From positions 34,104,757 to 34,168,756 of the forward strand of contig NC_134842.1 of the NCBI RefSeq assembly GCF_965363235.1: 64,000 nt of DNA, read 5' to 3'. Made by a program: the position numbers and the translations under genes. Of this stretch, positions 12,440 through 63,638 are shown in pieces. Position 1 is the stretch's first letter. Every line of letters begins with the position of its first letter. Origin of the DNA: Mytilus galloprovincialis. Lineage: Eukaryota. Under the pieces are notes generated by a model. The model was not told the origin of the DNA and made no database searches. It saw only the letters and a list, made by a program, of their open reading frames with translations.

Positions 12440-12545
12440 TCACAAGTCTCTTTCTTTGAAGTTCACCATGATACCAGTTTTTGCTCTCAAAACAACTTCC
12501 ATGAAAGGTTCAACAACATGATCTGGATCTAGTGATACTTCAAAT
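12440..12545 (-). CDS. CYP4 paralog A exon 12 (C-terminus + stop)
   Basis: Acceptor ttttaacag|ATTTGAAG. Translation FEVSLDPDHVVEPFMEVVLRAKTGIMVNFKERDL. TGA stop at 12440-12442. Exon lengths sum to 1518 nt = 505 aa + stop. Confidence 0.8.
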
Positions 12546-12917
12546 CTGTTAAAAACAAAAATACTTATATAATTCATGATCTAAAATTACACATTACAGA
12601 ATTTATCTTAATCCGTTATTTTGGGCAATTAAACTTTATGTAATGTAAAAAAGGTACAAATTAATGTAACCTATCAATTATTTCAACTTCGTACTTGAAT
12701 TGGCGTACAAAACTTTAATTCTTGTATCTATGATGAATTATTTGTATATATTATATTTTGACTCAAAGCATAACTAAGCACTTATCTATATCAGAAACAA
12801 ACAAACAAAAATCATTAAAATACTTTAAATACAGTTTTCTAACTATTTTAACTAAGTTTGAATTTTGAAAGTGGTAGGTTTTTATTTGCCTACCTGTTAA
12901 AATACATTTAATCATAC

Positions 12918-12983
12918 CTTTTGATTATTCTTGCAATCATCACTTTTTCTTCATTCTGTGCAAAATTCATTCCAATACAGTTT
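12918..12983 (-). CDS. CYP4 paralog A exon 11 (heme-binding Cys loop)
   Basis: Acceptor ttttcag|AAACTGTATTGG. Translation (R)NCIGMNFAQNEEKVMIARIIKR, completing FSAGPRNCIG. Donor AAG|gtatga. 66 nt. Confidence 0.85.
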
Positions 12984-13379
12984 CTGAAAAGTTAAATTAT
13001 ATTAATTAAATCGTCATATATAAAATATAATTATATCTTCCAAATTAATCAAGAAGAAATGATGAGAAATGCATTGCTTATTTGATGTTTGCTTAGTATA
13101 AGTGGTAAATATTGCATGTATATTCTTTATGAGGGTGTACTGGTAAGTGTGTGCTCAATTAAATGTAATATTTATAGTATGTGAAATTTATATTCAGTCC
13201 AATGGAAGAACATTTCACTTGGGTACAGACTACAGTTTGTGTGATTGTTTTTTTTTTTTATATTGTGTGACTAAGCTCTTAAATTTTCATCATGGTATTG
13301 CTTTCAAATTTCTCTCCTCAACATCCCAATGCATTGAATTTTACCTTGGTCACAAAAAAAAAACCTGGTGTAGAACACA

Positions 13380-14128
13380 ATATATCCCATTCTTGATATG
13401 GGAGATAACTCATTATTGAATAAAAATATTTGGTCAAACTATATGGATCCATCTCATAAAGCTGCATACCTCATATCTTTTTTGGTTTATTAAATAATTA
13501 ACTCATATTTACCTTTTAACCATAGAAATAGGAGCACATCTATAAGGAGATGTCACATAAGGAGTATTTTGCACAAATACCTCTGCTTTACATGGGAGAT
13601 AACTCATATTTCACTTGAATCAACTGAAGTTTTAGCAAACTTTCATGATGGTTTTTGAAGATAAAAATTGGAATTATAATATTTTTTTATTAGTTTAGAA
13701 TTTCATGGCAAGTAAGTCTTGTGTTTTAAGCTCTTCTTTCTCTGATTAATATTGGAGAAAGAAAGAGCTAAAATCAAGGTTAGATTCACTTGATCTAAGT
13801 CAGGGGTTTACACAGTATATATTGGAGATGATACATATCTTACTGGAGCCAGCAAATAATAAAGTAAAAGTTCAAGGATCTGATGTGAATATGGGAGATT
13901 ATCCTCATTGATATAGGAGACAACTCATTTATAACTCCGCACCTTTTCTCAAAACATGTCTTATTATACAGATCTTTCCAATAGTGTTTTTCCCTCAAAT
14001 CTCATGGTTTATTACAGAAATAGTTTTTATTTAACTTGTTCCCGAAAGAAAAAAGTTTTAAGAAAAAGGTATAAAGTAATTACCAGTTATGAGTTATCTC
14101 CCATATCAAGGTCAGATAAATATTTACC
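13380..14128 (-). repeat. Intron-10 tandem array in paralog A: degenerate copies of the exon-10 3' end, splice donor and downstream TATCTCCC motif
   Basis: Repeated GATGGATCCATATAG.TTTACTCCATTTTCAGCTGGACCAAGgtaaat...TATCTCCCATATCAAG-like units, about 100-200-bp period. Same position as the arrays at 31200-31529 (B) and 62797-63330 (C). Confidence 0.7.
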
Positions 14129-14210
14129 TTGGTCCAGCTGAAAATGGAGTAAAGCTATATGGATCCATTTCATGATGTTTGTCTCCCTCAAATCTCTCTG
14201 GTCTAAACTC
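14128..14210 (-). CDS. CYP4 paralog A exon 10 (PERF motif)
   Basis: Acceptor tttctag|GAGTTTAGACC. Translation EFRPERFEGDKHHEMDPYSFTPFSAGPR. Donor AAG|gtaaat. 83 nt. Confidence 0.85.
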
Positions 14211-14699
14211 CTAGAAATGAAAATAAACAAAGCTGTGATCACAATACAACCTTTTGTTTTTCATTATTTACTATCATTACTGTCACATAATAAATTATCT
14301 GAATTTTTATACACATTAATTACAACAATAAGAAAAGGACCAACTTAAATTAACAAATTGTATTAGTGTGATTAAATATAATGAACAGCCTTACAGAAAC
14401 AAGACTCAGCTATTCTCACATTTGCACCAGCATTTTTATTTTAATCTTTATGTAGGAACATCATTTCTGCTCATCTAAAAATCATGTTCAAATTATGAAG
14501 CAGTTTACATGTTCTTTTAAAAATGTATATAAAATTCACGATATGCTCTCATGGAATTATAATTTACACATTTGTAATAATTACACTACTATATGTAAAG
14601 ATTAAAAGGAAGATGTTTTTACAAACTAAGAGATTACATGGTAGTAAGAAAACCAGGGCAGGCTAAAAAAAATATGTTCTGTATATTGTAAGACCTACT

Positions 14700-14895
14700 G
14701 TAGGATTTTGCCAGACATCAGGATGATTTTGAGCATGGTAAATACCCAGATCTATTAATATTCCAGCAGGTATCTCTACACCATTGGTAACAACAGGTTG
14801 ATCTAGCATTCTGTTGACTATGGATACAGGCGAATGTAATCTCATTACTTCCTTTAAGAAACACGTCAAGTATCTCAAATTTGATAGATCTTCAC
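14700..14895 (-). CDS. CYP4 paralog A exon 9 (K-helix ExxR)
   Basis: Acceptor ttatttag|TGAAGATC. Translation EDLSNLRYLTCFLKEVMRLHSPVSIVNRMLDQPVVTNGVEIPAGILIDLGIYHAQNHPDVWQNPT. Donor ACA|gtaggt. 196 nt. Overlaps track ORF 14663..14878. Confidence 0.82.
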
Positions 14896-15716
14896 TAAAT
14901 AAAATAAAAGAACTGTAGACTTAAAAATAATATTTTAGAAAGAATGTTTATGATAATAGAGCTTTTATTACAAAAATAATTCCAATGAAAAATTTTTTTT
15001 TAACTGATAAGTTGTATACTGAGGATTCATTATTATTCATTTGATACCAATTTTAGTGGATTTCATGGTAACCTGTAAATCCCATATTTCATTGTAAGAT
15101 GAATTAATGTGGTACCTAACACTACAGGGAAATAACTCTGTAAAATCAGCTAAACGTTTTAATTACTTTGTGTTGTTTAGGGAATATTAAGCTTCTCAAT
15201 GATCAAAATAAGGGTTGGTCAAACTGCTATATAACCAGTGTAATTTTCCTGATAAAACGGTTGGTTCAAATTTTTTGAAATTTTTACATTTTTGTTAGAG
15301 GGTCAAAGTAAATACTTTGTTAAAATTTTATGAAAATTAAAGGAGCCAAATTTATTTTAGTGAAGGTACCTTAAATGACTTTTCTATAAGAATATATTCA
15401 GACTTTGGTAAAACCATGAAATCAAATATCCACAAAATTACAAGTCTTCCTCAATCAACGAAAAATGGTACGCTCAAAAATAAATAATCCACAGTAGGTG
15501 TATAACTATACAATGACATAATTTTATATTCATTTGCAAAAATGTAATTTTCTAATACTATATCTAATAAATTATAAAAAAAATAAATTCAGTCACCATG
15601 TAAAACTTGTTTTCAAGCTACAAATTGTGAACAAAATGACATGCTTTGTAATCAAAGGTACAGGTATTTTTATGCAACTTTATAGAAAGAGAACTAAAAA
15701 TAAAATACAATTTTAC

Positions 15717-15840
15717 CTGTCAACAGTATTTTTGCTGCCAATGACCTGTTTAATTTCCTGATAAACTTTGTCCTGGATAGCTTTGAATTTACCCAAACAA
15801 TACATACTCCAACTAAGCACACAAGATGTTGTGTCATGAC
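15717..15840 (-). CDS. CYP4 paralog A exon 8 (I-helix GHDTTS)
   Basis: Acceptor ttctag|GTCATGAC. Translation (G)HDTTSCVLSWSMYCLGKFKAIQDKVYQEIKQVIGSKNTVDR. Donor AG|gtaaaa. 124 nt. Confidence 0.8.
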
Positions 15841-16476
15841 CTAGAACATAAACTCTTCCATATAAAGCGGTATGCAAAATATAGTTAAGATCTGAGTTTT
15901 ATAACTTCTACTTCTATAAGGATTTAGATATCAAACACAAAGAAATAATTAAATGCTTAAAAATAAATCACAAGTTTTATCGACTCTGGACGATTTTGAG
16001 GTTGACTATGATATTGTTAAGACATCTGTTTGTTGTTGAAGACTTTGTTGCCCTTCAGATGTCTTTCGGTTATTTTTTTGGTTGGGTTTCTGTATCATTA
16101 ATGTATACCCCTCTTCTCCTTTAAATCATATTTGTTAATGGCAAAGTGAACAGTTTCTCTTTACTTGTTTGTTTTATTTTATTACATAAGATAATATATA
16201 CTGACAAACTCTATTCCTTGCACAGGATTAAACATGAAATGGAAGATATATCGTAGCTACTAGTAATCATATTCAATCAGAAATAATCTTTGAGAAGAAT
16301 AGAAATGACAATCACAAATCTATCAAAAGTTAAGTTTGCTTTAATTTAAAACTTAAGATAGATAAGATGGCAGCATATGGGAATATTAATATACATATGT
16401 TTAATAGGCAAACAATTGGTGGTTACCGGCAATACTGAATCCAGTATTAGGTAGAACATTTTTGTTAAAAAATTAC

Positions 16477-16609
16477 CAGCAAAAAGGAAGGTATCGACTT
16501 CTGCCCTGATTTCATCATCCGTCAGTCCGACACCATTGTCATCTTTGGCTGTTATTAATATATCAAGGAAATCCAAGTGTTTCTTCTTCTCTGTTTCTTT
16601 ACTTTCATT
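16477..16609 (-). CDS. CYP4 paralog A exon 7 (I-helix first half, EVDTFLFAG)
   Basis: Acceptor ccaag|AATGAAAGT, with an in-frame TGA just upstream in the intron. Translation NESKETEKKKHLDFLDILITAKDDNGVGLTDDEIRAEVDTFLFAG. Donor G|gtaatt. 133 nt. Confidence 0.8.
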
Positions 16610-17261
16610 CTTGGATGATCATTTATAAAATATATTAGATTTAAATTTAATTCTATCATTGCTTGATAATCAAAGAAAAAAAATATAGTCAAAATAGTTT
16701 CTTTGCTTATTTATAATACTGTCAAGTTAAAGAACCAACAATTGAGAGAAATTGTTTCATTATATCACAACTTACTTTATTAAGAATTTTCATGACCTAA
16801 TTTTGAGAATCAAAATTTCTTATGTATTTTTTATAATAATATTTTGGTTATATGTTGACTGACAGGGTTTGGTGTAAAATTATGAGTGAAATCAATTATC
16901 TCCCCTTAAATATATGATTTTATTTTTGTCCAGAAGTGGAACACATTTTTTTTATTGACCAGGAACAATTTATAAATATTGATTTACTTAAATCAATTTT
17001 TATTTGCAGAAAATGCTATTAATTGAATCAACCCTAGATGTGGTAATTTTGAAATATAAAAGACATAAGTTTAAAGTATACTGTGGATTTGTGTATTTTC
17101 TTGGGTATCATTTTTTGGATTTGGGGAAATTTGTATTGTGCGGATATTTAATTTCATGGTTTTGCCAAATTCTACATTCAAGAATTTAAAACATTTATTC
17201 TTCGTTAAAATTTAAATTTGCATTAATATTTATCCTCCAAATCCCCCATGAGAGTACCTAC

Positions 17262-17388
17262 CAGTTCTTTTCTTCTTGTAGAAATGATATCTTTTGAGAA
17301 TTTATGAACATAATCACAAAGTTTAAAGAATTCTCTGCCATTGGCTGTCAGGTATCTATATATGAACTCTGGGTAGTGGTGAATATAT
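17262..17388 (-). CDS. CYP4 paralog A exon 6
   Basis: Acceptor ttctgtag|ATATATTC. Translation YIHHYPEFIYRYLTANGREFFKLCDYVHKFSKDIISTRRKEL. Donor CTG|gtaggt. 127 nt. Overlaps track ORF 17223..17426. Confidence 0.8.
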
Positions 17389-17639
17389 CTACAGAAAAAA
17401 AATCCAATAAAGTTAAATATGTACATTTAAAATATGCAAAAAACTGATTATATCTTTGCCCTAAAAGAAAACGAAGTCTCTATCAATGAAAGTTCTTTTA
17501 TTCGTTGTTTTCATTTATTATGTTGATGGAGTACAGGAGTGAAGAACTCCCTCCCCAATCTGTACTCACAACAGTTAATCAAAACCACAAAGTCTTATAC
17601 AAGGTTTTTAATGGTAATTAAATCAAAGAATTTAAAAAT

Positions 17640-17990
17640 ACTCAATGAAATATTCATTACAATTGGATTCCATTGAATAATATACAATTACTGTCTTTTG
17701 ATGAGGTAAATGTGTAGTTTTATTGACTTTTGAAAAATTGATATTCACTGAGGCCAAAGGTCAAAAGTCAATTAAACCACATATTTACCGAAACAAAAGA
17801 CAGTAATTGTTTTATTCCATATTCCGAGAGAAATGTATGTAATGGCAGTTATGAATCAAAACCAATTGTACATCAATCGTTTTTTTTACAAAAATAGTGC
17901 AGGTAAAAGCACCCGACGTTATGCGCGGTGAATATCCTTTTTCCGCAGGTGAATATGCTTATTTATTCAAAATCCCATTCATATAGAAAA
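17640..17990. mobile_element. MITE-like hairpin (17687-17815, about 48-bp arms) plus adjacent repeat. A related copy lies at 29560-29830.
   Basis: CAATTACTGTCTTTTGATGAGGTAAATGTGTAGTTTTATTGAC...GTCAATTAAACCACATATTTACCGAAACAAAAGACAGTAATTG. GGTGAATATGCTTATTTATTCAAAATCC is shared with the reverse complement of 29590-29620. Confidence 0.6.
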
Positions 17991-18159
17991 ACCTACTAAA
18001 GTTTTATCAATATGGAATAATTTTTTTTATTTTATTGTTTCATTCTTAATTTCTTGATAGAAATATTAAATTATAAAATATTGCCCTATATTTTCAGAAA
18101 GAAAAAAGACAACATCTTCCAAAGAATTTTGTATAGTTATATTAATTGATAATACTCAC

Positions 18160-18222
18160 AAACATCTTTCCTGAATGTGAAAACCAAGTCGATTCACTGC
18201 TATTACATATGGATGGTGTTCT
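18160..18222 (-). CDS. CYP4 paralog A exon 5
   Basis: Acceptor ttttcag|AGAACACC. Translation EHHPYVIAVNRLGFHIQERCL. Donor TT|gtgagt. 63 nt. Confidence 0.72.
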
Positions 18223-18672
18223 CTGAAAATAAGGAAGCAACTATTACGTTAAACCTGCTAACTTTTTATGCACTTGTCATAAGTCAGAAGCCTGTTGTTC
18301 AGTGGTTGTTCAGTGATTGTTGTTTGTTAGTGTGTTAAAAACACAAGTGTTTCTTGTTTCTCGTTTTTAGACTGTTGGTTTTCCTATTTGAATGGTTTAA
18401 AATGATTTTTGGGGCACTATATAGCTTGTTGTTCAGTATGAGCCTAGGCTCCATGTTGAAGACCGTACTTTGACATATAATAGCTATATAGTTTACTTTT
18501 AAAAATTGAGACTTTGATGGAGAGTTGTCACATTGGCACTCATAACCAATCTTCCTATACCTTTTGTAAAAGAATATTTTTTTTCTATCAATTTTTGATC
18601 AATTGAAGATGAAAAGTAATATCATATACGTACTACAATTTTATAGAATTATTAACAAAATATTTTACATAC

Positions 18673-18797
18673 CCAACTTGTTGTACATCTCCCTTATATC
18701 CCAAGGCACACTGAAGTAGAGTGTCTAATGTAGCCATGCTAGCTGGTTTGAATATATCTATGTATTTTCTCTTTTCACACATAGTTGCCAATTTATC
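18673..18797 (-). CDS. CYP4 paralog A exon 4
   Basis: Acceptor ttttag|GATAAATTGG. Translation DKLATMCEKRKYIDIFKPASMATLDTLLQCALGYKGDVQQVG. Donor GG|gtatgt. 125 nt. Confidence 0.78.
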
Positions 18798-19501
18798 CTA
18801 AAATAAATGTTTTCACAAGAATTGTGTGGTAGCTATGTGATCAAATCAGTAAGGATTTTATATTTGTTTCTTTTTGTTTTTCGATTGTATACTTCAGCAT
18901 GTTTGATTTCAATAAGAATAATCATAGTACCTTGAAAATATTATTATATTTACAAATGTAGTACTTTATCAACATGATAAAACTAGATAGGAACAGCTTC
19001 TCCTATGTTTATTTCTCAACAGTAATATTTTCTAAAATTCCTCAAATCTTTACTTAAACTCCCATAAAGTATCAGAGATTCAATTGAAACTACTTTTAAT
19101 AAAAAGCTTATCATTCATTTACTAGACAATATATTTGCATCAATTAGGCTGTTAGTTATCTTACTTGAATTGTTTTACATTTGTCATTAAATAAGGCCTT
19201 TTATAGATGACTATGTGGAAAATTATACCACATCTTTTTTATTTTTATTGGTTAAATCATTATTTCTATTTAATAATGGAATACTGTGGATTCATTTATT
19301 TTCTAGGGTATCAATTTTCGTGGATTGCTGAAAACTTGATTTCGTGGTTTTGACAATATCTGTATACAAAGCCTATTAAAACAGATGTATTTAACAGTTG
19401 ATTTCTAGGTTCACCTGTATCCACGAAACCAACGAAAAGTGGTATCCAACGAAGAATAATTAATCCACAGTATTGAAGAAAGGCATTAATGTTTTACTCA
19501 C

Positions 19502-19629
19502 CATTAATACATCGGTAACTTCATTGTAAATCTTGAAATACCCCGTCAATATACTGAAGTGGAATGCTGGTGTCAACAATCGACGATTTCTCTCCCATTT
19601 AGCTCCATTTGATAATAGAAGACTTTGAC
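19502..19629 (-). CDS. CYP4 paralog A exon 3 (helix-C signature [15 protein letters not shown])
   Basis: Acceptor ttttatag|GTCAAAGT. Translation [42 protein letters not shown]. Donor ATG|gtgagt. 128 nt. Confidence 0.82.
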
Positions 19630-20336
19630 CTATAAAAGGAATAGGAATGAAAAATGAAAACAATCTGTAGGACTTAATGAAAGAAGAAATGTACAAATTT
19701 TTCATTTTACACTGATAATAATACAGCAATGAAGATAATAGAATAGATTTATCTTTATACTTTATGCATTTTCTTAAAAGAATGTTTTCTGAAGCTGAAG
19801 CTTGTCTCCCCATGCTGGATTTTCTCACTTTGTTGTAGATCCATTAATGGCTATGAGCTGTTTTCTACTTTTTGGTCAGTAGTTGTCTCTTTGACACATT
19901 CCCCATTTCCAATTTCATTTTTATATATCTGATATAAATGCTTCTTGAGGAATTCTGTCAATCTTAAGTCTTCTGTTAAAACGAACATTAGATAAAGAAA
20001 GTCCTGATAGTTTCATAAATTGTCTTTGCTCAACACAATCATTGTTCCCTGTTGCAATGTCAAAACTATTAGTAAAAATTTCACCTTAGTATTTCTATTG
20101 AAATTTGCAATGCCAGTCTATTCTTTCATTTTACAAAATAATATAAATCTGAAGTATATTTGTCAATATCTTTTACATTTCGTAGGATGTCAAATTTTGA
20201 TGTGAAGAAATTACAAAGAATTCAATTATATTATCTTAGAAATTCAATATTTCTATGCTAAACTTAAGGAATGAACAAGTACATGTATTGATTTATTTAT
20301 ATAGACACAAGTATCTTTGATTTAACCTAAGAATGT

Positions 20337-20500
20337 ATCATTTAATTTAATATGTTTAAGGCAGGGGGAGATAATTAATATGTTTAATGCAGGGGGAGAA
20401 AACTAATATGTTTATTTCAGGGGGAGATAATTAATATGTTTAATGCAGGGGGAGAAAACTAATATGTTTATTTCAGGGGGAGATAATTAAATATGTTTTT
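20337..20500. repeat. 28-bp minisatellite (GTTTAATGCAGGGGGAGATAATTAATAT)n, about 6 copies, with one inverted copy at 20670-20710
   Basis: Read directly; in intron 2 of paralog A. Confidence 0.85.
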
Positions 20501-21311
20501 AATGCAAGACAATCATAAACAAAAATGTATTTAATATAGCTAAGGTATTAATATTATTTTATGAAACTTATTTATTTTAGAAAATGGAGGTTACCACGCT
20601 CTTGTTTTCTTGATATATTGCAAATTACTATTAAAAAATAAAACTGATTCACATTATTTTAATATTTCCTTAAATTATCTCCCCCTGAATTGAACACATT
20701 AAACATATTTCATAATAACCAAACTTTATTATTTTTACATAAAATTGTACATGTAACGTTGTATTGTTAGATGAGGGTCTATATGTGGTTTTTATAATCA
20801 AGAATAATGGGAGAAAAATTGAAGATATAGAGAAAAATTTGGCCGAAAATATTGAATAAAAATTATTAGATGCTAAATTGAAAATTCAATTGAAAAGACC
20901 AAAACATATTTGAAAGAATGTTTAGTAGAACAAAAAATGTAAAGAAATTAAAGAATAAAAATATTCAAAATTCCCTGTCGAGAGCCTCTTTCATATCGAT
21001 CTCATTAGTTTGTCACCCCATACCACCTTTTCCCCTTAAGGTACTGTAGATTTATTTATTTTAGCTGATACTTATTTTCTTGGATTGAAAAAAAAAATGT
21101 ATTTTAGTAACAATCATATTTGATATAGTGGTAAGTAAAAGTCTGGATTTAAACCTATAGAAAGTTCGTGATTTGTTAAAAACATGTAAATTTGTGGTTT
21201 ATCAAAACCCATAAAATCCACAAAAAATGGTAACCCACGAATAATAATGAATCCACCTGTACAGAACACTTGAAAAAACAATACTATTGAAAGGATCTGA
21301 AATATCTATAC

Positions 21312-21513
21312 CTAGCCATGGTACAAGGAATGGATACCCTGGTCCTACAGTAGGCTTTGGTGAATTAGACCTCATGACTTCTTTGATTGTATCTGGATGT
21401 GCTAGCATCACAGTTGGAAAGAATGTTGACAACCAAAACACATATATCTTCACTTTTTTCTGCACAATGAATTCTTCATGACATTTATAATGGAATTCAC
21501 TAAAATTTCCTAT
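21312..21513 (-). CDS. CYP4 paralog A exon 2
   Basis: Acceptor ttttgcag|ATAGGA. Translation IGNFSEFHYKCHEEFIVQKKVKIYVFWLSTFFPTVMLAHPDTIKEVMRSNSPKPTVGPGYPFLVPWLG. Donor G|gtatag. 202 nt. Confidence 0.78.
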
Positions 21514-21839
21514 CTGCAAAACACAAAAAATGAAACATGATTAATAAAGTTGACTCTATAAATTGAATTGTGTCTCAACCCAAAATGCAAGGAATCAAGA
21601 AGAGACCAACAAAATTTTACTCTAATTATAACTATTGTAACGTGTAACCGGGCGGGGACGTTTAGATATTTTAATCCTCGGGTTCGTACCAGTTTCCTGG
21701 GATTTGAAAAGCAATTCAAAAGTTCTAAAGTCAATAAAAAGTTTACACTACCACTAACAAATATGAAACAAATACTACATAAAACAAATTTCAACACTTA
21801 TCAACCTAACCCGAACCTGTTGAATTAAAACTGTTTAAA

Positions 21840-22270
21840 ACCCTTTCAGTCCGATACTGTTTAAACCAACTGTTTGAAACTATAGTCTGAAACCTAAATG
21901 TATGGAACTGGTTTGAAACCTAAATGTATGGAATGGGTCTGAAACCTAAATGTATGAAACTGGTCAGACAGTTTGGAACTATTGTCTGAAACCTAAATGT
22001 TTGGAACTGGTCTGAAACCTAAATGTTTGGATCGGGTCAGACAATTTGGAACTATTGTCCGAAACCTAAATGTTTGGAACTGGTCTGAAACCTAGATGTT
22101 TGGAACTGGTCTGGAACCTAAATGTTTGAAACGTGTCAGACGGTTTGGAACTATTGTCTGAAACCTAAATGTTTAAAAATGGGGCTGAACCGAAATTTAT
22201 CAAACGGGCTGAAACCTGAATGTATAAAACGGGCTGAACCGAAATGTCTCAAACGGGCTGAAACCTGAAT
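21840..22270. repeat. Minisatellite, about 27-40-bp unit (CTGAAACCTAAATGTTTGGAACTGGT...)n, about 15 copies, in intron 1 of paralog A
   Basis: Read directly. Confidence 0.85.
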
Positions 22271-22369
22271 AAAACAAATGTATGGAAACTATTCAAACTG
22301 TTGTAAAACTTTCTTATGAAACTTAATAAAATAAACATGTCTATAACTGTCTGAACAACAGGGCAGCAC

Positions 22370-32897: not shown

Positions 32898-32929
32898 CTG
32901 AAATACCAAAACAGATATAACAACATGAA

Positions 32930-56063: not shown

Positions 56064-56351
56064 CATATTTGTTGGGTGAGAAAGGAAAGTTAATAATTGG
56101 GTGCCCAAAAAGTAACAACTTTCATTTGGAATAATTCATTGCACTGTATTGGCACCAACATTTACTTTGTTTGTCCATACATGTACTGAAATTAATCATT
56201 AGAATGGATGCCACTTGATTTCAATACAATATTATAGCCATTCATGCAGTATCTTACAACATAACACATGCTTAATTTGAATTATTTTGGCTTTGATATA
56301 TTGATTTCAAACTTTTATATGTAACTGACAAGTAATGCCTTTATTTTGTAG

Positions 56352-56475
56352 AAACATTAATTTGTATCCAGAATTTCTATTCAAGCTATCACCTAGTGGT
56401 AAAGAATTTTTCAAGCTCTGTGATTATGTTCATGAGTTTTCAGAAGATATTATTTTGAAGAGAAAAGATGATTTG
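56352..56475 (+). CDS. CYP4 paralog C exon 6, one codon shorter than in A and B
   Basis: Acceptor ttattttgtag|AAACATT. Translation NINLYPEFLFKLSPSGKEFFKLCDYVHEFSEDIILKRKDDL. Donor TTG|gtatga. 124 nt. Confidence 0.78.
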
Positions 56476-57442
56476 GTATGATATATTATATCAATTATAA
56501 ACCGTTTTCACTAGAATTTTATTCAAATGGTGTGAAATAATACCTTTATATCCTTTATTAAGGATGTTCGCTGCTCAGTTTCAAAATAAATAACTTTTTA
56601 TAAAGCTAGTATGTATTGATAGGGAATAAATTGAGAAATCAAAAAAGCCAAAAAAATATTGGGGTCAATGTGCTTGTTTTCGAGATATTAGCCATTAGAA
56701 TTTTGGCGGGAAGATGTTCTCTCTTGATTTTTCATAGCTTTATCATTGACCAGTTAAAGTTCTCAAATACTATTAAAAAATAAATAAAATTTTATAAGAC
56801 TTTTACAAATGACTTGTAATTATACATGTAAAAGATTTACAAAAAGAAAAATGGGGGTTCATTGGGAATTTTTTTTAATGCATTCAAATGGATAAAACCA
56901 GAGGATTCCGAAATTATGACAAAAATTCCAAAACATGACCAGCAGACATCCTTAAAACAGTTTTAAGATGTTGATACTATTGTTTTGAAAATCAAATATA
57001 GATGATACTTTGAAACCTTATTTGTATATCCAAGATTGCATACATTCATCACATATTCTGTATCTAAGCCCTATTTGTAATACCTCTGGAATGATCATGC
57101 CTTAATCGATATACAACATATATGATATAGTGAACAATAAATGATACTATGTCATTCATAAGGTACCCATTTATAAATATACTGGTATCAGACAATCTGC
57201 AGATCAAATTTTGTTATGTAAAATGGAGAATATTCATAGTATTTTTATTTGTTCTTGTATGTGACAGTTAATATGGGTAAATCAATTTGTGCTACATTTT
57301 GTCATGTTTTTTATAAATCAAAATTAAACAAACAAAAAAATAAAAACAAAGCTTATACCTGAAATGAAAATCCCATTGGTTGAGTATTTCATTTTTTTTT
57401 TCTTTAATTATTTCACCTTATTATAACTTAATACTTTTATAG

Positions 57443-57575
57443 AAGGACGGTTCCGAAACAAAGAAGAAAAGACAGTTGGATTTTCTGGATATTTTGTTAA
57501 CAGCGAGAGATGAATCTGGTAAAGGATTAACTAATGAAGAGATTAGATCTGAGGTGGATACATTTATGTTTGCTG
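57443..57575 (+). CDS. CYP4 paralog C exon 7 (I-helix first half, EVDTFMFAG)
   Basis: Acceptor acttttatag|AAGGACGG. Translation [45 protein letters not shown]. Donor G|gtaaag. 133 nt. Confidence 0.82.
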
Positions 57576-58313
57576 GTAAAGTATTATGTTTAGAATTATA
57601 GATATAAGAAGATGTGGTATGAGTGTCAATAAGACAACTCTCAATCTAATTTGCAATTTGTAAAAGTAAACCATTATAGGTTAAAGTACGGTTTTCAACA
57701 CAGAGCCTTGGCTCACACAGAACAGCAAGCTATACATTTACTTGATTGAATATCCAGCATTTTATATGTTAGTCGATGTATTCCAATCGTGTATCAGATG
57801 TTTTGAATTCTGTATGTCCTAAGTCTACAAACTTAAATGTAAAGAAATCAAGAGTCCTGATCCTAAATGACCCCTGAAAATAGTTCTTTTAAACACCTGA
57901 GTTCTAACCTTTGATTTTCACAGCATGACCTTTGAGTTGTTAGTTCCATAAGTCCTGAACCTTTTTGATTTAGGATTAATTTTGAACCTCTGCTGTATGC
58001 ATTTTATCTATGTATCAAAATTCAATGAACTTATGTAATGTAAACCTTTTTTAGTAGTTTCATGTTATTTTAAGAAAGATATTGTATGTTAACTTAATAC
58101 TGTTTATAAAGTTAAAATGATAATAAAAGTTGATGAAACAGAATCAGATTAATGAATAATATCTACAGTTTTAAACCTATTAAGTCAGATTCTTCCATTA
58201 TTCATCTAGTATGTGCTCAGCTCTTGATGGTTATTTTTGAATAGCTCCGTCTATTTGTTAACATCTAATTTTTACACTCATGAAATGATGATTTGTCTCG
58301 TCATGAAATAAAG

Positions 58314-58437
58314 GTCACGACACAACATCCAGTGTATTGAGCTGGAGTATATACAGTTTAGGCAAACACAAAGATATACAGGACAAAGTTTATGAAGAGG
58401 TCAGAGGGGTCATTGGGGATAAACAGTATGTTGATTG
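58314..58437 (+). CDS. CYP4 paralog C exon 8 (GHDTTS). The acceptor has a weak polypyrimidine tract.
   Basis: Acceptor gaaataaag|GTCACGAC. Translation (G)HDTTSSVLSWSIYSLGKHKDIQDKVYEEVRGVIGDKQYVD(C). Donor TG|gtaagt. 124 nt. Confidence 0.75.
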
Positions 58438-59046
58438 GTAAGTAAAAGGCTTAATTAATTGATAATGATGATGGATGTTTGCTTAACATCCAGCGGAAAA
58501 TTGATATGCATATTCATGACGAGAACATGTTAATGTAATATAAATATTAACCCTGTTTTTAAGTAGACCAACATGCTAGCTCACAAGGTAACAGTCTGTA
58601 GGAAGACTACATTTTTATGCCCCATTTATTATGCCCCATTTATGGGCATTATGTTTTCTGGTCTGTGCGTCCGTTCGTCCGTTCGTTCGTTCGTTCGTCC
58701 GTTCGTTCGTTCGTCCGTCTGTCCCGCTTCAGGTTAAAGTTTTTGGTCGAGGTAGTTTTTGATGAAGTTGAAGTCTAATCAACTTGAAACTTAGTACATA
58801 TGTTCTGTATGATATGATCTTTCTAATTTTAATTCCAAATTAGAGATTTAACCCCATTTTCACGGTCCACTGAACATAGAAAATGATAGTGCGGATGGGG
58901 CATCCGTGTACTGGGGACACATTCTTGTTATTGTATGTCTTGTCACCTTACCAGAACACAATATTTTGACTCAGATGCTGACTAGCCTTTGCTCTTACTC
59001 CTTAATGCCACGTGATAATAATAGAAGCAGCAAATACCAATTTAAA

Positions 59047-59078
59047 AATCTTTGGTTTGACCCGGCCAGGATTTGAAC
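59047..59078 (-). other. tRNA-derived fragment (T-arm and 3' acceptor: GGGTTCAAATCCTGGCCGGGTCA). Probably a SINE-head remnant, not a functional tRNA.
   Basis: The reverse complement reads ...CATGGGTTCAAATCCTGGCCGGGTCAAACC. The anticodon arm is missing. Confidence 0.35.
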
Positions 59079-59329
59079 CCATGACCTCCTGCACTCACCT
59101 ACAGTCAAGGCGAATTGAAGTATAACCTTTCTGAATATATTGATACTTATGGTTTGGAATAAAATAATGATAAGCTGTTTCCTTTGTATTTAAACCTTTC
59201 TATAATTTTATGAAAGAAGCTTGTGGTATGCCACATTTGTTAATGTAATGGCTAATAAATTTGTTTTGTAAACACTATTATGAAGTGTTTACAAATGTTA
59301 ATTATACCCCTGCTTTGAAAAAAGGGGGG

Positions 59330-59760
59330 TATACTGTTTTACCTCTGTATGTCCGTCAGTCCGTCCGTCAGTCCATCAGTCCATCCCTTCCATGAATATT
59401 TTTCGTTTCATTTTTGTCAGGAAATACAAGGATTTCTGAAATGTGGTTCCAGGGTTTATATAAGTCTGCTATACCATTTGATGGGTTATCAGATTCATCA
59501 CTCGACAACTTCCTGTTTACCGAACACTTGTATTATTTAACACATGATAACCAAGTTGAAAATTTTCGTCATGTTTTTCTTAGGAACTACAATAAAAGGA
59601 TTGCTGAAATTTGGTTTCAGGATTTATGCAAATCAGCTATACCGTGTGATGCGTTTTCAGATTTAACACTCAACAACTTCCTGTATACCAAACACTTGCA
59701 TATTTTTAAAATATTAAAATTATCCACTTGCCGCGGGGGTATCATCAGTGAGCAGTAGCT
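59330..59760. repeat. About 180-bp tandem repeat x2 preceded by a (GTCCGTCA)n microsatellite. Produces the internally repetitive track ORF 59414..59758.
   Basis: ATTTCTGAAATGTGGTTCCAGGGTTTATATAAGTCTGCTATACCATTTGATGG... repeated as ATTGCTGAAATTTGGTTTCAGGATTTATGCAAATCAGCTATACCGTGTGATGC... Confidence 0.6.
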
Positions 59761-61669
59761 TGCAGTTTCACTTGTTTAGAAAATAAGAGGATGTAGTTTT
59801 CTATTATCAGAAACTTATTTATCCATTTAGATATAAAAACCAAAAGAAAAGAAAGCCCTGAGAGAATAGAATGAACTCTTTAAACAGAGTTAAATAGTTA
59901 GATGCCTAGACAAGGTTAAGAAATGTGGATATTAACTAAACAGCCTAGTTCTTTGCCTCCAGTGTTCTCCCCAGGCCGACGCTATATTTTTTCACCGTGA
60001 TGCTTTAATAATTCCCGCGACGCTATAATTATTTTGAAGATGCTATTTTACTTGTCCTCAATTTTGAACTTTCATCTATTATCGATTATGATCATAAAAA
60101 TTATATCACCTTTAATTGTAATCCCTTTAAGTCGGACACTAAAGGCAATTAAGAGATTAAATAGCTAGTTGTTAATTGCCCTCAGGGTGATAACTGTTTG
60201 GATGCGAATATCCCAAGCTGACACTTGTGACATGACTAATACCACGTGTCTGCAATCACCAATTTCGACATGGAAAAATGCAATCACAAAACAATTCGAA
60301 ATCTATGTTTTGTATTACGAAATTTCAAAGATTGAAACGTTTTTTTCTTTTTAAAAGATCCTTTATTTGTGCAACTCTCCAAAAATTACTTTTTTTCTCT
60401 TCCGGTAATACGAGAGCAAGAATTTTGGTTTAGAGCTAAAATAAGTCTAATACTTCTTTAAAAAGTTATAATAATTGGCTTAAGTTTATGTTTAATCCAT
60501 TTAATGCATTAAAAGCGTCTTATTCATTCACAATCTCTTGTCAAACAATGTTTATTCTCGGACTCATTTTCGCAAATTTTTCTACGGCCGCCATTGCACA
60601 TTTTTGTGTAAACTGCGGATAGGAACCGGACCAGAATGACAAAAATCCGCATTTTCACGATAATGACAACAGATGGACAGTAGACAGAAAAAATGTTCCA
60701 AGAGAGAAAACTACGCATTAACAGACTATTTGTTAGATAACTTTGTTAAAAATACATATCATTTTGATGTAAAGATAAGAAACAACTGGGACTAATTCAT
60801 TGAGTGCCATGAAACAATGAATTTAATAAACATGATAAAAGAAGTTTTTAAATTGATTTTTTTTTGCTACTTTTGCTACTTTATCTTTACTTAATATAAT
60901 ATAAAAAATAGTTAATTTTGTGTACTAGATATTGAGTTTTGTATATATACAGGTTGCACTATAATGAACCATTCATTCATTTGACTTATTGTTGGGTAAC
61001 TGAAACCACATATTTATTTTTGTTTGGCACAAAAGGAAAAAAACAATTCTGTAACTATAAATGAATAAAGAAAACATCAACTGAAACAACTGTTTTTGTG
61101 GTTATAGTTTAATTGTATTCTCAGTTATGAATTGAACAATATAAACTAAAACATATAAAGGAAATAGAGCATCAACGCGACGCGACAAATGACATTAAAA
61201 AAAATACAGTTATTTTTTTTTACGCAAAATGTGATGCTATCCAAAATTTCTGGGGAGAACACTGGCCTCTATCCTAGTTGACTTAATATTTGCCTGAGTC
61301 TAAAAATGATTCATTGTAGATATCTTTCGAAGCCGAACTTAAAAGAAATCATACAGTATTTAAACAACTACTAAAAATAATAACATCTGCTAAAAAAGGA
61401 TATGAATTTGATCGTTGTCCATTAAAATACATCATAATGAGCAATACTGGTTTAATTATGTGCAAAATCTAGTTTTCTCCACTTGATTGTTTGAGGTAAG
61501 CTCCTTTTTGGTCAAATTTCATATAATTAGAAATGTTATCATGTCCCATCAGTTACAATATATTGAAAGTTGACTGTGTACATATCATTCAACAAAAAAT
61601 GTCATATTTTTTTCATCTTATATTCATCATGTTTGATTTTTTTTAAATCTTTCAAATATTTTATTTCAG

Positions 61670-61865
61670 TGAAGACATATCTAAAATGAAATATTTGAGT
61701 TGTTTCCTCAAGGAGGTAATGAGACATCATACACCAGTACCTGTTATCAGTAGAATGCTAGATGAGCCATGTGTTATTGAAGGTGTAGAGATACCTAAAG
61801 GAAGTTTTATAGATATGGCTATCTATCATGCTCATCACCATCCTGATGTATGGGAGGACCCATGG
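61670..61865 (+). CDS. CYP4 paralog C exon 9 (K-helix)
   Basis: Acceptor ttttatttcag|TGAAGACA. Translation EDISKMKYLSCFLKEVMRHHTPVPVISRMLDEPCVIEGVEIPKGSFIDMAIYHAHHHPDVWEDPW. Donor TGG|gtaagt. 196 nt. Overlaps track ORF 61686..61976. Confidence 0.85.
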
Positions 61866-62713
61866 GTAAGTCTACAAATTAGGTGCTTCGAAGGTGTTTC
61901 CCAATGTCAAATCAAGGTCAAAAACAATTTTTTTTTTAGAATTACTTCTGAAAGGAGGGTAAAAATTGTGTATTGACAGGGTTGACAAATCCAGCTATTT
62001 TTTCCTGTCAATGGAATCCACACTCATAGACTTAAATAAGATGTACTACTAGGGGTTCATTATTACTCGTTGGAAAAACAATGTTTATGGATCTCATGGG
62101 TACAGGTGAACCAAGAAATTAACTGTTCAATGACTAACAATGTTTTTATAGGTTTGAATGCAGACTTTGGGAAAACAAGAAATAAACTATTCATGAAAAT
62201 GTTTCCTTTCCTAAGTACACTAAAATTGGTAACAACGAAAATAGTGAATCCACAGTATAAGGGACAGGTTTAGAATGTAATATGTTCAATATGAAAAATC
62301 AGCTGTTGTTAATTGGATATAAGATTTAACAAGAGATATTTCATTAGATTGAATACAAATCCTATTATGTTTAAAAGATATAGGAAGATGTGGTATGAGT
62401 GTCAATGAGACAACTCTTCATCCAAGTAACAATTTAAAGTAAAGTTATACAATTTTCTAGCTAAGATACATTATACATTACCAAATATCCAGAAACTTTA
62501 TGACATATTATTTAATATCAGATATAAAATTTGACAAGAGCATGTTTATGTGTCATTCTTTTTTTTACAGTTGTTAAACAAGCAATCCATGAATATAATT
62601 TGAAATTGTATAATTAAATGAAGCACCTTTTCACATTCTTTAGTCCTTTCAAACTTTTCTTATCTATAAAGCAAATACTGATAAGTTAGAATACTATTTG
62701 TTTTCAATTCTAG

Positions 62714-62796
62714 GAGTTTAAACCAGAGAGATTTGAGGGAGACAAACATCATGATATGGATCCATATAGTTTAACTCCATTTTCAGCTGGACCAAG
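62714..62796 (+). CDS. CYP4 paralog C exon 10 (PERF)
   Basis: Acceptor caattctag|GAGTTTAAACC. Translation EFKPERFEGDKHHDMDPYSLTPFSAGPR. Donor AAG|gtaaat. 83 nt. Confidence 0.85.
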
Positions 62797-63330
62797 GTAA
62801 ATGTGAAGTATCTCCCCTGAAATGTAAAACAATTAACGAGACAAATATCGCAAGATTTTAATTCAGACAGACTTCCTAGGTAGATTCTTATAGTTGTACT
62901 CTATTTCTGCTTGACAAAGATAAATTTGAGTTATCTCCCCTGAAATGTAAAACAATTAAGGAGAGACAAATATCGTAAGATTTTAATTGAGACAGATTCC
63001 TAGGTAGATTCTTAAAGTTGTACTCTATTTTCTGCTTGAAAAATGTAAATTTGTGTTGTCTCCCCTTTCCTACAGAAACTTTCAATCCAGAAAGACTTCG
63101 TCAGTTGATCCTTATAACTTTACTCAATTTTCTGCTTGACCAAGGTAACTATTAATTATCTCTAATTATGCAGGAAGACTAATTGAAACAAACACAGTTG
63201 ATCCTTATAGTTTTACTCCATTTTCTGGTTGATTGAGATGAACATAAATTATCTCCCCTATAATGCAGAGGATCCTAATAGGTTTACTCCATTTTCAGTT
63301 GGACCATGGTAAATACAAATTATCCACCAT
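62797..63330 (+). repeat. Intron-10 tandem array in paralog C: about 5 copies of an about 105-bp unit. Each unit carries a degenerate DPYSFTPFSAGP exon-10 tail, a GTAAAT donor, a TATCTCCCCTGAAATG motif and an acceptor-like TTCTTATAG.
   Basis: Unit starts at about 62797, 62895, 62998, 63095 and 63200, e.g. GATCCTTATAGTTTTACTCCATTTTCTGGTTGA.. and GGTTTACTCCATTTTCAGTTGGACCATGgtaaat. Confidence 0.8.
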
Positions 63331-63572
63331 AAATTAGTGGATAAATACAGATGATAAAAGTCAATGAAAAGGACTTTTATAATTGTATTCCTTTCATGGA
63401 GAAGAATGAAGATAATTATGAATGTCAGCAGTTTGAAAGAGACAAAAAGCATTTCAATTTACTAATTTTCTGAACTACTACAGTATTTATTAATAAGGAG
63501 AAAACATCAATTATTCAGCTTTTGACTTTATTCAATTTTCCACCCAGGCAATGTGAATATTTTTTATTTCAG

Positions 63573-63638
63573 AAATTGTATTGGCCAAGCATTTGCACAA
63601 AATGAAGAAAAGGTCCTAATTGCTAGACTAGTCAATAG
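63573..63638 (+). CDS. CYP4 paralog C exon 11 (heme Cys loop). Exon 12 lies beyond the window end.
   Basis: Acceptor ttttatttcag|AAATTGTATTGG. Translation (R)NCIGQAFAQNEEKVLIARLVNR. Donor AG|gtaata. 66 nt. Confidence 0.85.

What the first reader, a model, noticed from the sequence alone, without database searches (positions are those of the whole stretch)
12440..63638. Tandem cluster of three CYP4-family cytochrome P450 paralogs with identical 12-exon architecture
Three genes share exon lengths and intron phases (165, 202/199, 128, 125, 63, 127/124, 133, 124, 196, 83, 66, 106 nt) and GT-AG introns at homologous positions. A (12440-23369) and B (30055-40737) are both on the minus strand; C (50114 to beyond 63638) is on the plus strand. 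A and B are about 80% identical at the protein level in the aligned exons, and C is more divergent. This indicates lineage-specific tandem duplication followed by inversion of one copy. The CYP4 assignment follows from the motifs [31 protein letters not shown](M/L)FAGHDTTS, EVMRLH, EFKPERF and FSAGPRNCIG, which were read in the sequence. No manually spliced coding sequence contained a frameshift or internal stop, so all three look functional. CYP4 expansions in bivalves are linked to xenobiotic and fatty-acid metabolism. These particular paralogs may be unannotated or mis-merged by automated pipelines because of the dense repeats.
Basis: partly seen in the sequence, partly recalled or inferred. 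Interest (0 to 1): 0.6.

Follow-up and report, generated by a model that had tools for sequence, protein, structure and literature searches.

The report
Three annotated mussel CYP4 P450 genes

Summary
Three CYP4-clan P450 genes lie at 12440-23369 (-), 30055-40737 (-) and 50114-63638 (+, last exon off the window).

My spliced models of A and B equal Mytilus galloprovincialis RefSeq proteins XP_076107317.1 and XP_076107318.1 residue for residue. The C model is the first 469 residues of XP_076107322.1. They are therefore neither unannotated nor mis-merged.

All P450 motifs are intact and dN/dS is about 0.1. Assembled transcripts of a B orthologue are colinear with all 12 B exons.

The evolutionary story needs correcting:
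- A and B (76% identical, dS about 1.1) are tandem sisters.
- C (about 60% identical) belongs to an older lineage. It is closer to two paralogues more than 23 Mb away on the same chromosome.
- The C/B/A order and orientation is the same in M. californianus, and each gene has orthologues in four other Mytilus species.

All three have Ala where CYP4A/B/F enzymes have the Glu that binds heme covalently.

One side observation may deserve follow-up. Exon 10 alone is 94-95% identical in DNA among the three genes, and decayed tandem copies of it follow in intron 10. Local gene conversion is the best explanation.

The parts
12440..23369 (-). Gene A, a CYP4-clan cytochrome P450 with 12 coding exons, 505 aa (= XP_076107317.1, 'cytochrome P450 4B1-like', M. 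galloprovincialis)
   Evidence: Exons 23205-23369, 21312-21513, 19502-19629, 18673-18797, 18160-18222, 17262-17388, 16477-16609, 15717-15840, 14699-14894, 14128-14210, 12918-12983, 12440-12545. All introns are GT-AG. The product is identical to P0121. Pfam p450 E = 2.9e-107.
30055..40737 (-). Gene B, a CYP4-clan cytochrome P450 with 12 coding exons, 504 aa (= XP_076107318.1 to XP_076107321.1, 'cytochrome P450 4B1-like')
   Evidence: Exons 40573-40737, 39233-39431, 38299-38426, 37384-37508, 36539-36601, 34856-34982, 34289-34421, 32774-32897, 32292-32487, 31529-31611, 30822-30887, 30055-30160. The product is identical to P0126. A 2.15-kb assembled transcript of a Mytilus orthologue aligns colinearly to all 12 exons.
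50114..63638 (+). Gene C, a CYP4-clan cytochrome P450. Coding exons 1-11 of 12 are in the window and encode the first 469 of 503 aa of XP_076107322.1 ('cytochrome P450 4A4-like'). Exon 12 lies beyond the window end.
   Evidence: Exons 50114-50278, 51389-51590, 52466-52593, 52936-53060, 53236-53298, 56352-56475, 57443-57575, 58314-58437, 61670-61865, 62714-62796, 63573-63638. The model is an exact prefix of P0165. No exon-12 match was found in 63639-64000.
14128..14210 (-). Exon 10 of A (EFRPERFEGDKHHEMDPYSFTPFSAGP), one of three nearly identical exon-10 copies
   Evidence: 95.2% nucleotide identity to exon 10 of both B and C, against 60-90% for the other exons. dS is 0.07-0.23, against more than 0.4 elsewhere.
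31529..31611 (-). Exon 10 of B
62714..62796 (+). Exon 10 of C
   Evidence: It differs from exon 10 of A and B at 4-5 nt, but from the whole-gene-closer paralogues P5 and P7 at 16-17 nt.
31313..31506 (-). Two decayed tandem copies of exon 10 plus the start of intron 10, inside B intron 10 (102-bp period)
   Evidence: TRF array 31301-31601, period 102, 2.9 copies. blastn copies at 31506-31419 and 31399-31313 are 80-81% identical to exon 10. The donor is lost in both copies and the second contains a stop.
62797..63315 (+). Array of about five decayed copies of the 3' part of exon 10 plus the start of intron 10, inside C intron 10
   Evidence: TRF 62765-63066, period 125, 2.4 copies. blastn copies at 63107-63152, 63200-63225 and 63270-63315 are 83-92% identical. 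In the three blastn copies that were translated (63080-63160, 63185-63240, 63250-63325) the reading frame is broken.
13433..13489 (-). Weak decayed exon-10-like copy inside A intron 10
   Evidence: blastn identity of 74-88% to exon 10 of A, B and C. tblastn hit at 13426-13488.
40292..40407 (+). Inverted 116-nt copy of part of B exon 2, inside B intron 1. It could pair with exon 2 in the pre-mRNA.
   Evidence: tblastn shows 80% identity to B residues 62-92 on the opposite strand. blastn shows 91% identity to B exon 2. The copy is present in M. trossulus (L003 10935-11027) and absent in M. californianus.

Best explanation
The window is a stretch of a Mytilus galloprovincialis chromosome that carries three functional, already annotated cytochrome P450 genes of the CYP4 clan. 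A and B are tandem duplicates on the minus strand. C lies head-to-head with B on the plus strand.

Shown here: each gene encodes a roughly 505-aa protein with a hydrophobic N-terminal segment and a PGP hinge, as in microsomal P450s. Each also has the I-helix AGHDTT, the K-helix ExxR, PERF, and the heme-thiolate loop FSAGPRNCIG.

Inferred from family knowledge: they are ER-bound heme-thiolate monooxygenases. They would take electrons from NADPH-P450 reductase and hydroxylate fatty acids or related lipids and xenobiotics.

All three, and their whole mytilid clade, have Ala at the position of Glu310 of CYP4B1. That Glu forms the covalent ester bond to heme. By inference they hold heme non-covalently and are probably less strictly omega-selective than mammalian CYP4A/B/F.

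History of the cluster: an old split separated the A/B lineage from the C lineage. The C lineage later gave rise to two paralogues now 23-27 Mb away. A and B arose by one tandem duplication. All of this predates the radiation of the genus Mytilus. Since then exon 10 has been homogenised among the three neighbours, most likely by short-tract gene conversion.
For: - Exon models with GT-AG introns and no stops.
- Products identical to RefSeq XP_076107317.1 and XP_076107318.1, and a prefix of XP_076107322.1.
- Pfam PF00067 covers residues 42-498, E = 1e-101 to 1e-111.
- CYP4B1 is the best solved relative by a wide margin: 347 bits, against 163 bits for CYP3A5.
- Motifs are located.
- Purifying selection: dN/dS is 0.147/1.12 for A-B, 0.038/0.316 for MgalC-McalC and 0.014/0.166 for MgalB-MtroB.
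- Six assembled RNA contigs encode a B orthologue. The one aligned (L006) matches all 12 B exons colinearly.
- The same 12-exon structure reproduces the annotated proteins exactly in the M. californianus C gene and the M. trossulus B gene.
- M. californianus has the same gene order and orientation at 39.91, 39.95 and 40.01 Mb. M. trossulus has B followed by A.
- Trees: the five-group mytilid clade has bootstrap 100, A+B 100, C+P5+P7 100 and A+B+C 0. P5 and P7 lie at 16.1 and 12.5 Mb on the same chromosome.
- Ala in place of Glu310. The top PDB chain, 6C93, is the E310A mutant. That mutant keeps turnover but has about fourfold lower omega-selectivity (PMC9916508).
- Exon 10: 94-95% nucleotide identity, against 60-90% in other exons. 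In A-C, 22 of 23 same-amino-acid codons are identical, against 124 of 237 elsewhere. It is the best 81-nt window in all three pairs. Its relationships contradict the whole-gene tree.
Against: - No expression or splice-junction data from M. galloprovincialis itself were available. The transcripts come from a related Mytilus (494/504 identical to the M. californianus B protein).
- No RNA evidence was found for A or C.
- Substrates and regioselectivity are inferred only.
- Identity to rabbit CYP4B1 is 37.8%, just below the customary 40% family line.
- The trees are neighbour-joining on protein distances only.
- The gene-conversion reading rests on one 83-nt exon with few variable sites.
Confidence: 0.9

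Rival explanations
1. Exon 10 is nearly identical among A, B and C because of selection on the nucleotide sequence itself, for example splicing enhancers in a short exon or an RNA structure. Gene conversion would then not be needed.
For: The high identity ends at or within about 20 nt of the exon borders. The exon encodes the most conserved protein segment, from PERF to the heme loop. About 25 nt of the downstream intron (gtaaatRtgaRKtatctccc) is also shared by B, C and the dispersed paralogue P5.
Against: Orthologous exon-10 copies differ as much as the paralogues do: 2-7 nt between M. galloprovincialis and M. californianus orthologues, against 4-5 nt between paralogues in one genome. The exon is therefore not unusually constrained over time. 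The dispersed paralogues P5 and P7 encode almost the same peptide. Yet against the A, B and C exons they differ at 3-13 of 19-25 same-amino-acid codons, most comparisons falling at 30-50% and near background. P7 against McalB is lower, at 3-4 of 21. C is closer to P5 and P7 over the whole gene, but closer to A and B in exon 10.
Confidence: 0.25
2. One or more of the three copies is a decaying or non-functional duplicate (an expressed or unexpressed pseudogene) that merely still has an open frame.
For: No RNA evidence was obtained for A or C. The introns carry exon debris, namely pseudo-exon-10 copies and an inverted exon-2 fragment.
Against: The frames are complete and every catalytic motif is present. 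The duplications are old (dS 1.1-1.7), yet dN/dS is about 0.1-0.18 between paralogues and about 0.09-0.12 between orthologues. Each gene has a full-length orthologue in M. trossulus, M. edulis and M. californianus, and M. coruscus has orthologues of all three, though its A model is truncated.
Confidence: 0.05
3. The apparent paralogues are an assembly artefact, that is, uncollapsed haplotypes or a mis-joined duplicate.
For: Mussel genomes are highly heterozygous and repeat-rich. 23% of the window matches itself elsewhere.
Against: The copies are only 60-76% identical in protein, with dS above 1. Introns are not alignable beyond the exon edges. The same three genes, in the same order, are present in an independent M. 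californianus assembly.
Confidence: 0.01

Closest known systems
RefSeq gene models of Mytilus galloprovincialis: XP_076107317.1 (4B1-like), XP_076107318.1 to XP_076107321.1 (4B1-like), XP_076107322.1 to XP_076107324.1 (4A4-like)
   Same: The amino-acid sequences are identical to my models of A and B, and to the 469 residues of C that lie in the window. The accession numbers are consecutive, in line with adjacency.
   Different: Nothing differs. These are the same genes. The names '4B1-like' and '4A4-like' are automatic best-hit labels, not orthology statements.
Rabbit CYP4B1 (PDB 5T6Q, 6C94; E310A mutant 6C93)
   Same: It is the best solved relative, aligned over residues 23-500. It shares the fold family and the I-helix motif EVDTFMF-x-GHDTT, ExxR, PERF and the heme loop FSAGPRNCIG.
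   Different: Identity is only 37.8%. The mussel proteins have Ala where native CYP4B1 has Glu310, the residue that binds heme covalently. In that respect they resemble the E310A mutant, which keeps turnover but loses omega-selectivity (PMC9916508).
Other Mytilus CYP4 paralogues of the same clade (P0005/P0009 group and P0007/P0152/P0153 group)
   Same: For the P7 group, 11 of the 12 exons were mapped with the same lengths. All have the same Ala in the I-helix. They lie on the same chromosome and are 67-70% identical to C.
   Different: They lie 23-27 Mb from the cluster in M. californianus. They do not share the homogenised exon 10, and no exon-10 pseudo-copies were detected in the loci examined.
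Vertebrate CYP4 gene clusters (human CYP4A/4B/4X/4Z on 1p33 and CYP4F on 19p13), cited from general knowledge and not tested here
   Same: They are tandem arrays of CYP4 paralogues with conserved multi-exon structure and mixed orientations, produced by lineage-specific duplication.
   Different: They are independent expansions. The mussel clade is not orthologous to any single vertebrate subfamily and lacks the heme-linking Glu.
Gene conversion between neighbouring P450 paralogues (CYP2D6/CYP2D7, CYP21A2/CYP21A1P), cited from general knowledge
   Same: Short tracts are copied between tandem P450 genes, giving local identity far above the gene average.
   Different: Here the tract is a single 83-nt exon shared by three functional genes, including a non-sister, oppositely oriented one. 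It sits next to arrays of decayed copies of that exon. The event was not observed directly.

Membership tests
Cytochrome P450 superfamily (Pfam PF00067) | Full-length match to the p450 profile above the gathering score | tested here: met
   Scores are 359.7, 372.5 and 340.4 bits against a cut-off of 22.8. The match covers profile positions 2-460 of 462 (2-429 for the truncated C).
Cytochrome P450 superfamily | Heme-thiolate loop FxxGxRxCxG with the axial Cys | tested here: met
   FSAGPRNCIG is at residue 444 in A and 443 in B and C. It spans the exon 10/11 junction.
Cytochrome P450 superfamily | K-helix ExxR, the PERF motif, and the I-helix (A/G)Gx(D/E)T(T/S) | tested here: met
   EVMR at 370-371, PERF at 424-425 and AGHDTT at 313-314 in all three.
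CYP4 clan | The closest characterised relatives are CYP4 enzymes rather than those of another clan | tested here: met
   CYP4B1 scores 347 bits and the next clan (CYP3A) 163 bits. In the 5.8-billion-protein search nearly every listed hit that carries a P450 subfamily name is labelled CYP4A, 4B, 4F or family 4.
CYP4 family in the strict nomenclature sense | At least about 40% amino-acid identity to a named CYP4 family member (customary P450 naming rule) | tested here: inconclusive
   A is 37.8% identical to rabbit CYP4B1. B is 44% identical to proteins that their sources label 'family 4', from Cyphoma gibbosum (P0095) and Pinctada (P0073). No official name from the P450 nomenclature committee was found.
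CYP4A/4B/4F-type enzymes with covalently bound heme | A Glu in the I-helix (Glu310 of CYP4B1, EVDTFMFEGHDTT) that forms an ester with the heme 5-methyl group | tested here: not met
   All three have Ala (EVDTF[LM]FAGHDTT), as does the whole mytilid clade and its ark-clam sister. The role of Glu310 is taken from PMC9916508.
Fatty-acid omega-hydroxylases | Demonstrated omega- or (omega-1)-hydroxylation of fatty acids or eicosanoids | not testable with these tools
   Needs enzyme assays. Nothing here bears on the substrate.
Single tandem-duplication cluster (the three genes as each other's closest relatives) | Adjacent genes with shared intron positions and phases that form one clade excluding non-adjacent genes | tested here: not met
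   Adjacency and identical intron positions and phases are met. A+B is a clade (bootstrap 100). A+B+C has bootstrap 0, and C groups with the distant paralogues P5 and P7 (bootstrap 100) (locations). The criterion is met for the A/B pair only.
Concerted evolution by gene conversion (exon 10) | A local collapse of synonymous divergence between paralogues, with relationships that contradict the rest of the gene | tested here: met
   dS in exon 10 is 0.07-0.23, against 0.44 to more than 2 in other exons. C is 4-5 nt from A and B but 16-17 nt from P5 and P7 in exon 10, the reverse of the whole-gene relationship. The 17 nt upstream of exon 10 in M. galloprovincialis A equal those of M. californianus C, not those of its own orthologue.

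The most novel reading that the evidence does not exclude
Exon 10, which encodes PERF up to the heme loop, may sit in a small recombination hotspot together with the arrays of decayed exon-10 copies that follow it in intron 10 of all three clustered genes. Repeated unequal exchange and short-tract gene conversion would keep this one exon almost identical in DNA across non-sister, oppositely oriented paralogues that are otherwise saturated at synonymous sites. The pseudo-exon arrays, and the inverted exon-2 copy in B intron 1, might in addition affect splicing of these genes.
Probability: 0.45. Interest if true: 0.3.

Novelty: already known. Interest (0 to 1): 0.15.

Why it matters
As found, it matters little. 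It is a correctly annotated detoxification and lipid-metabolism gene cluster in a sequenced mussel, and tandem P450 expansions are commonplace.

Three points are useful for people working on bivalve P450s:
- The automatic names '4B1-like' and '4A4-like' hide the true relationships. A/B and C/P5/P7 form a mytilid-specific clade.
- The whole clade lacks the heme-linking glutamate, which predicts non-covalent heme and relaxed omega-selectivity.
- Exon 10 cannot be used for paralogue-specific primers or probes, or for read assignment, because it is nearly identical among the three genes.

Tried and rejected
Homology blocks were needed. For A exon 9 two equally long candidates existed. I kept 14699-14894 because it restores HPDVWQNP and matches B and RefSeq.
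- The first chain search for C returned nothing because of a scripting condition that required a stop in the last exon given. This was solved.
- Exact look-ups of the M. galloprovincialis proteins A and B, and of P0005, in the contig index found nothing. The M. galloprovincialis chromosome beyond the window, including exon 12 of C, could therefore not be read.
- A GENECONV-style test on runs of matching variable sites was uninformative, because exon 10 is almost invariant among all three genes. I used codon-identity counts and comparison with outside paralogues instead.
- Pseudo-exon-10 copies were checked as possible alternative exons and rejected in the copies examined in detail. They have lost donors or acceptors or contain stops, and they lack the PERF part.
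- Four literature searches for a described Mytilus or bivalve CYP4 cluster, or a nomenclature name, found nothing relevant.
- The Rfam and tRNA scans of the window were empty.
- Pfam scans of the other long ORFs gave no meaningful family.
- No structure prediction was run. The sequence matches to Pfam and to a solved CYP4 were already decisive.

Full report
**What is in the sequence.** The window is AT-rich (about 31% G+C) throughout. Open-frame fragments of the three regions were compared with each other. They gave 12 colinear conserved blocks in A and B and 11 in C.

Chaining these blocks with AG/GT borders and an open frame gave one model each for B and C and two for A. The two A models differ only in exon 9. 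The A model with exon 9 at 14699-14894 restores the conserved HPDVWQNP and matches B.

Exon lengths are 165, 202/199/202, 128, 125, 63, 127/127/124, 133, 124, 196, 83, 66 and 106. Intron phases are 0,1,0,2,2,0,1,2,0,2,2, and all introns are GT-AG. Exon 12 of C is not in the remaining 362 bases.

**Identity of the genes.**
- All three products match Pfam p450 over nearly the full profile, with E-values of 1e-101 to 1e-111.
- Among solved structures, rabbit CYP4B1 is far ahead: 347 bits, against 163 bits for CYP3A5.
- A search of 5.8 billion proteins returned Mytilus proteins first, then other molluscan CYP4-like proteins.
- Exact look-up showed that my A and B models are, residue for residue, M. 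galloprovincialis RefSeq proteins XP_076107317.1 and XP_076107318.1 to XP_076107321.1. These sit on a 103-Mb chromosome record.
- The 469 residues of C are the exact start of XP_076107322.1 to XP_076107324.1, which is 503 aa.

The window therefore comes from M. galloprovincialis, and the three genes are already annotated with these exon structures. Older annotations of the same genes do contain fragments and truncated models. Examples are VDI55365 to VDI55369 on a 34.6-kb contig and a 435-aa M. coruscus model.

**Evidence that they function.**
- The products have a hydrophobic N-terminus followed by a PGP hinge, AGHDTT in the I-helix, EVMR (ExxR), PERF, and the heme loop FSAGPRNCIG.
- dN/dS is 0.147/1.12 for A-B, 0.29/1.65 for A-C and 0.28/1.76 for B-C.
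- Between orthologues it is 0.038/0.316 (C, M. galloprovincialis against M. californianus) and 0.014/0.166 (B, against M. trossulus).
- Each gene has full-length orthologues in M. trossulus, M. edulis and M. californianus. M. coruscus has orthologues of all three, though its A model is truncated.
- In two of these orthologues (M. californianus C and M. trossulus B), the same 12 exon lengths reproduce the annotated protein exactly.
- Six RNA-derived contigs of 1.7-2.2 kb from public sequencing runs encode a 504-aa B orthologue. It is 494/504 identical to the M. californianus B protein.
- The longest of these contigs aligns colinearly to all 12 B exons in the window. This supports the junctions at the RNA level in a sister species.
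- I found no such contigs for A or C.

**Likely mechanism.** By membership in the CYP4 clan, these are inferred to be microsomal heme-thiolate monooxygenases. They would be supplied by NADPH-P450 reductase and act on fatty acids, related lipids or xenobiotics. This is inference from family knowledge and was not tested.

One specific prediction follows from the sequence. At the position of Glu310 of CYP4B1, all three have Ala. In CYP4A, 4B and 4F that Glu forms an ester bond to the heme 5-methyl. It is what enforces omega-hydroxylation.

The best PDB match, 6C93, is in fact the E310A mutant. According to the CYP4B1 review, this mutant keeps its turnover but has about fourfold lower omega-selectivity (PMC9916508). 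Among the 166 relatives retrieved, 77 have Glu and 71 have Ala. The whole mytilid clade and its ark-clam sister have Ala, while other Mytilus CYP4s have Glu.

Identity of A to rabbit CYP4B1 is 37.8%. B is 44% identical to proteins labelled 'family 4' from Cyphoma and Pinctada. Clan membership is therefore firm, but strict family naming is a matter for the nomenclature committee.

**History of the cluster.** A neighbour-joining tree of 54 proteins places A, B and C in a mytilid-only clade together with two further paralogue groups (bootstrap 100). I call these groups P5 and P7. The sister to this clade is a Tegillarca gene (bootstrap 92).

Within the clade, A+B has bootstrap 100 and C+P5+P7 has bootstrap 100. 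A+B+C is never recovered. Whole-protein identity agrees: C is 67-70% identical to P5 and P7 but 58-60% identical to A and B.

In M. californianus the genes lie on one chromosome:
- P7 at 12.54 Mb
- P5 at 16.12 Mb
- C at 39.91 Mb (-)
- B at 39.95 Mb (+)
- A at 40.01 Mb (+)

The order and orientation of C, B and A are the same as in the window, read on the other strand. M. trossulus has B followed by A on one strand.

The A/B tandem duplication has dS about 1.1, roughly 3.5 times the M. galloprovincialis to M. californianus orthologue dS. The older A/B versus C split likewise predates the genus radiation. The cluster is not a simple triplication with one inversion. Whether C became inverted or was inserted in inverted orientation cannot be decided. 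Introns of A and B share no similarity beyond the exon edges, which fits the age.

**Side observation: exon 10.** Per-exon nucleotide identity is 60-90% for every exon except exon 10 (83 nt). Exon 10 is 95.2%, 95.2% and 94.0% identical in the three pairs. It is the best 81-nt window in each pair.

In A-C, 22 of 23 same-amino-acid codons are identical in exon 10, against 124 of 237 in the other exons. dS is 0.07, against 1.0 to more than 2.6. The similarity stops within about 20 nt of the exon borders.

Two facts argue against simple constraint:
- Orthologous exon-10 copies differ by 2-7 nt between M. galloprovincialis and M. californianus, as much as paralogues in one genome (4-5 nt).
- The dispersed paralogues P5 and P7 encode nearly the same peptide but differ from A, B and C at 13-19 nt. 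In most comparisons 30-50% of the same-amino-acid codons differ. P7 against McalB is lower, at 3-4 of 21.

So C resembles its neighbours in exon 10 but resembles its distant relatives everywhere else. This is the signature of gene conversion between neighbours. In addition, the 17 nt before exon 10 in M. galloprovincialis A equal those of M. californianus C rather than those of its own orthologue.

The numbers are small and the event was not seen directly. I give the conversion reading about 0.6 to 0.7 against 0.25 for nucleotide-level constraint.

**Pseudo-exons.** Intron 10 of each clustered gene carries decayed direct copies of the 3' part of exon 10 plus the first 30 or so bases of the intron:
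- Two copies in B, with a 102-bp period.
- About five in C, partly with a 125-bp period.
- One weak copy in A.

These are documented. Copy numbers differ between orthologues. M. californianus has four partial copies in A, three in C and none in B, and M. trossulus B has two. None was detected in the P5 and P7 loci. The copies examined in detail in B and C lack splice sites, contain stops, or lack the PERF part, so they are not alternative exons. Why this one exon attracts both tandem copying and homogenisation is unexplained.

**Other things in the window.**
- B intron 1 holds an inverted 116-nt copy of part of exon 2 (40292-40407, 91% identical). It is shared with M. trossulus but absent from M. 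californianus.
- C intron 5 contains two 527-bp direct repeats that are 99.4% identical, 1.4 kb apart, with no ORF between them.
- The B-C intergenic region has a satellite block (43638-44865). Its 126-bp unit recurs inverted just downstream of A.
- A 268-aa coiled-coil ORF at 2539-3345 is conserved in M. edulis and M. coruscus, on the contigs that also carry the CYP4 cluster.
- No Rfam family or tRNA is present.
- 23% of the window matches another part of itself.

**Verdict.** The assignment to CYP4 and the inference of function are supported. The duplication-plus-inversion scenario is too simple, and the suggestion that the genes are unannotated is wrong. This is an already known, correctly annotated gene cluster of an ordinary kind. 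The exon-10 homogenisation with adjacent pseudo-exon arrays is a modest curiosity.

Noticed in passing
window 14128-14210, 31529-31611, 62714-62796: Exon 10 alone is 94-95% identical in DNA among the three paralogues, against 60-90% for other exons, with dS of 0.07-0.23. Its relationships contradict the whole-gene tree, which points to short-tract gene conversion among neighbours.
   Followed up: yes
window 31313-31506 (B intron 10), 62797-63315 (C intron 10), 13433-13489 (A intron 10); also L001 23769-24049, L004 20791-21752, L003 26962-27485: Decayed direct tandem copies of the 3' part of exon 10 plus the start of intron 10. Copy number varies between orthologues. None was detected in the dispersed paralogue loci L005, L012 and L013. 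The copies examined in detail in B and C are not usable as exons.
   Followed up: yes
window 40292-40407 (+), inside B intron 1: Inverted 116-nt copy of part of B exon 2, 91% identical. It could form a long duplex with exon 2 in the pre-mRNA. It is present in M. trossulus (L003 10935-11027) and absent in M. californianus.
   Followed up: partly
window 53634-54160 and 55538-56063 (C intron 5): Two 527-bp direct repeats, 99.4% identical, 1377 bp apart, with no ORF above 77 aa between them. Either a recent non-autonomous element with long terminal repeats or a 1.9-kb tandem duplication. No clear target-site duplication was seen.
   Followed up: partly
window 43638-44865 (B-C intergenic) and 11650-12084 (downstream of A): A satellite block with units of 161 bp (3.8 copies), 126 bp (3.1 copies) and 35 bp. 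The 126-bp unit recurs in inverted orientation just 3' of gene A.
   Followed up: no
window 35103-35369 (B intron 5); 20347-20498 and 21863-22270 (A introns 2 and 1): Short-unit tandem arrays: 38 bp x 7 at 98% identity, 28 bp x 5.4, and units of about 25-99 bp. The 28-bp unit contains GGGGGAGATAA. Its reverse complement resembles the TTATCTCCCC motif that begins the exon-10 repeat unit.
   Followed up: no
window 2539-3345 (+): An uninterrupted 268-aa ORF encoding a coiled-coil protein with no convincing Pfam family. It is 94% identical to an unnamed M. edulis protein and 85% identical to an M. coruscus protein, both on contigs that also carry the CYP4 cluster. It is probably a conserved neighbouring gene.
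   Followed up: partly
proteins A, B, C residue 313/314 (I-helix; exon 7/8 junction at window 16477/15840, 34289/32897, 57575/58314): Ala replaces the Glu that links heme covalently in CYP4A/B/F. The whole mytilid clade shares this, while other Mytilus CYP4s keep Glu.
   Followed up: yes
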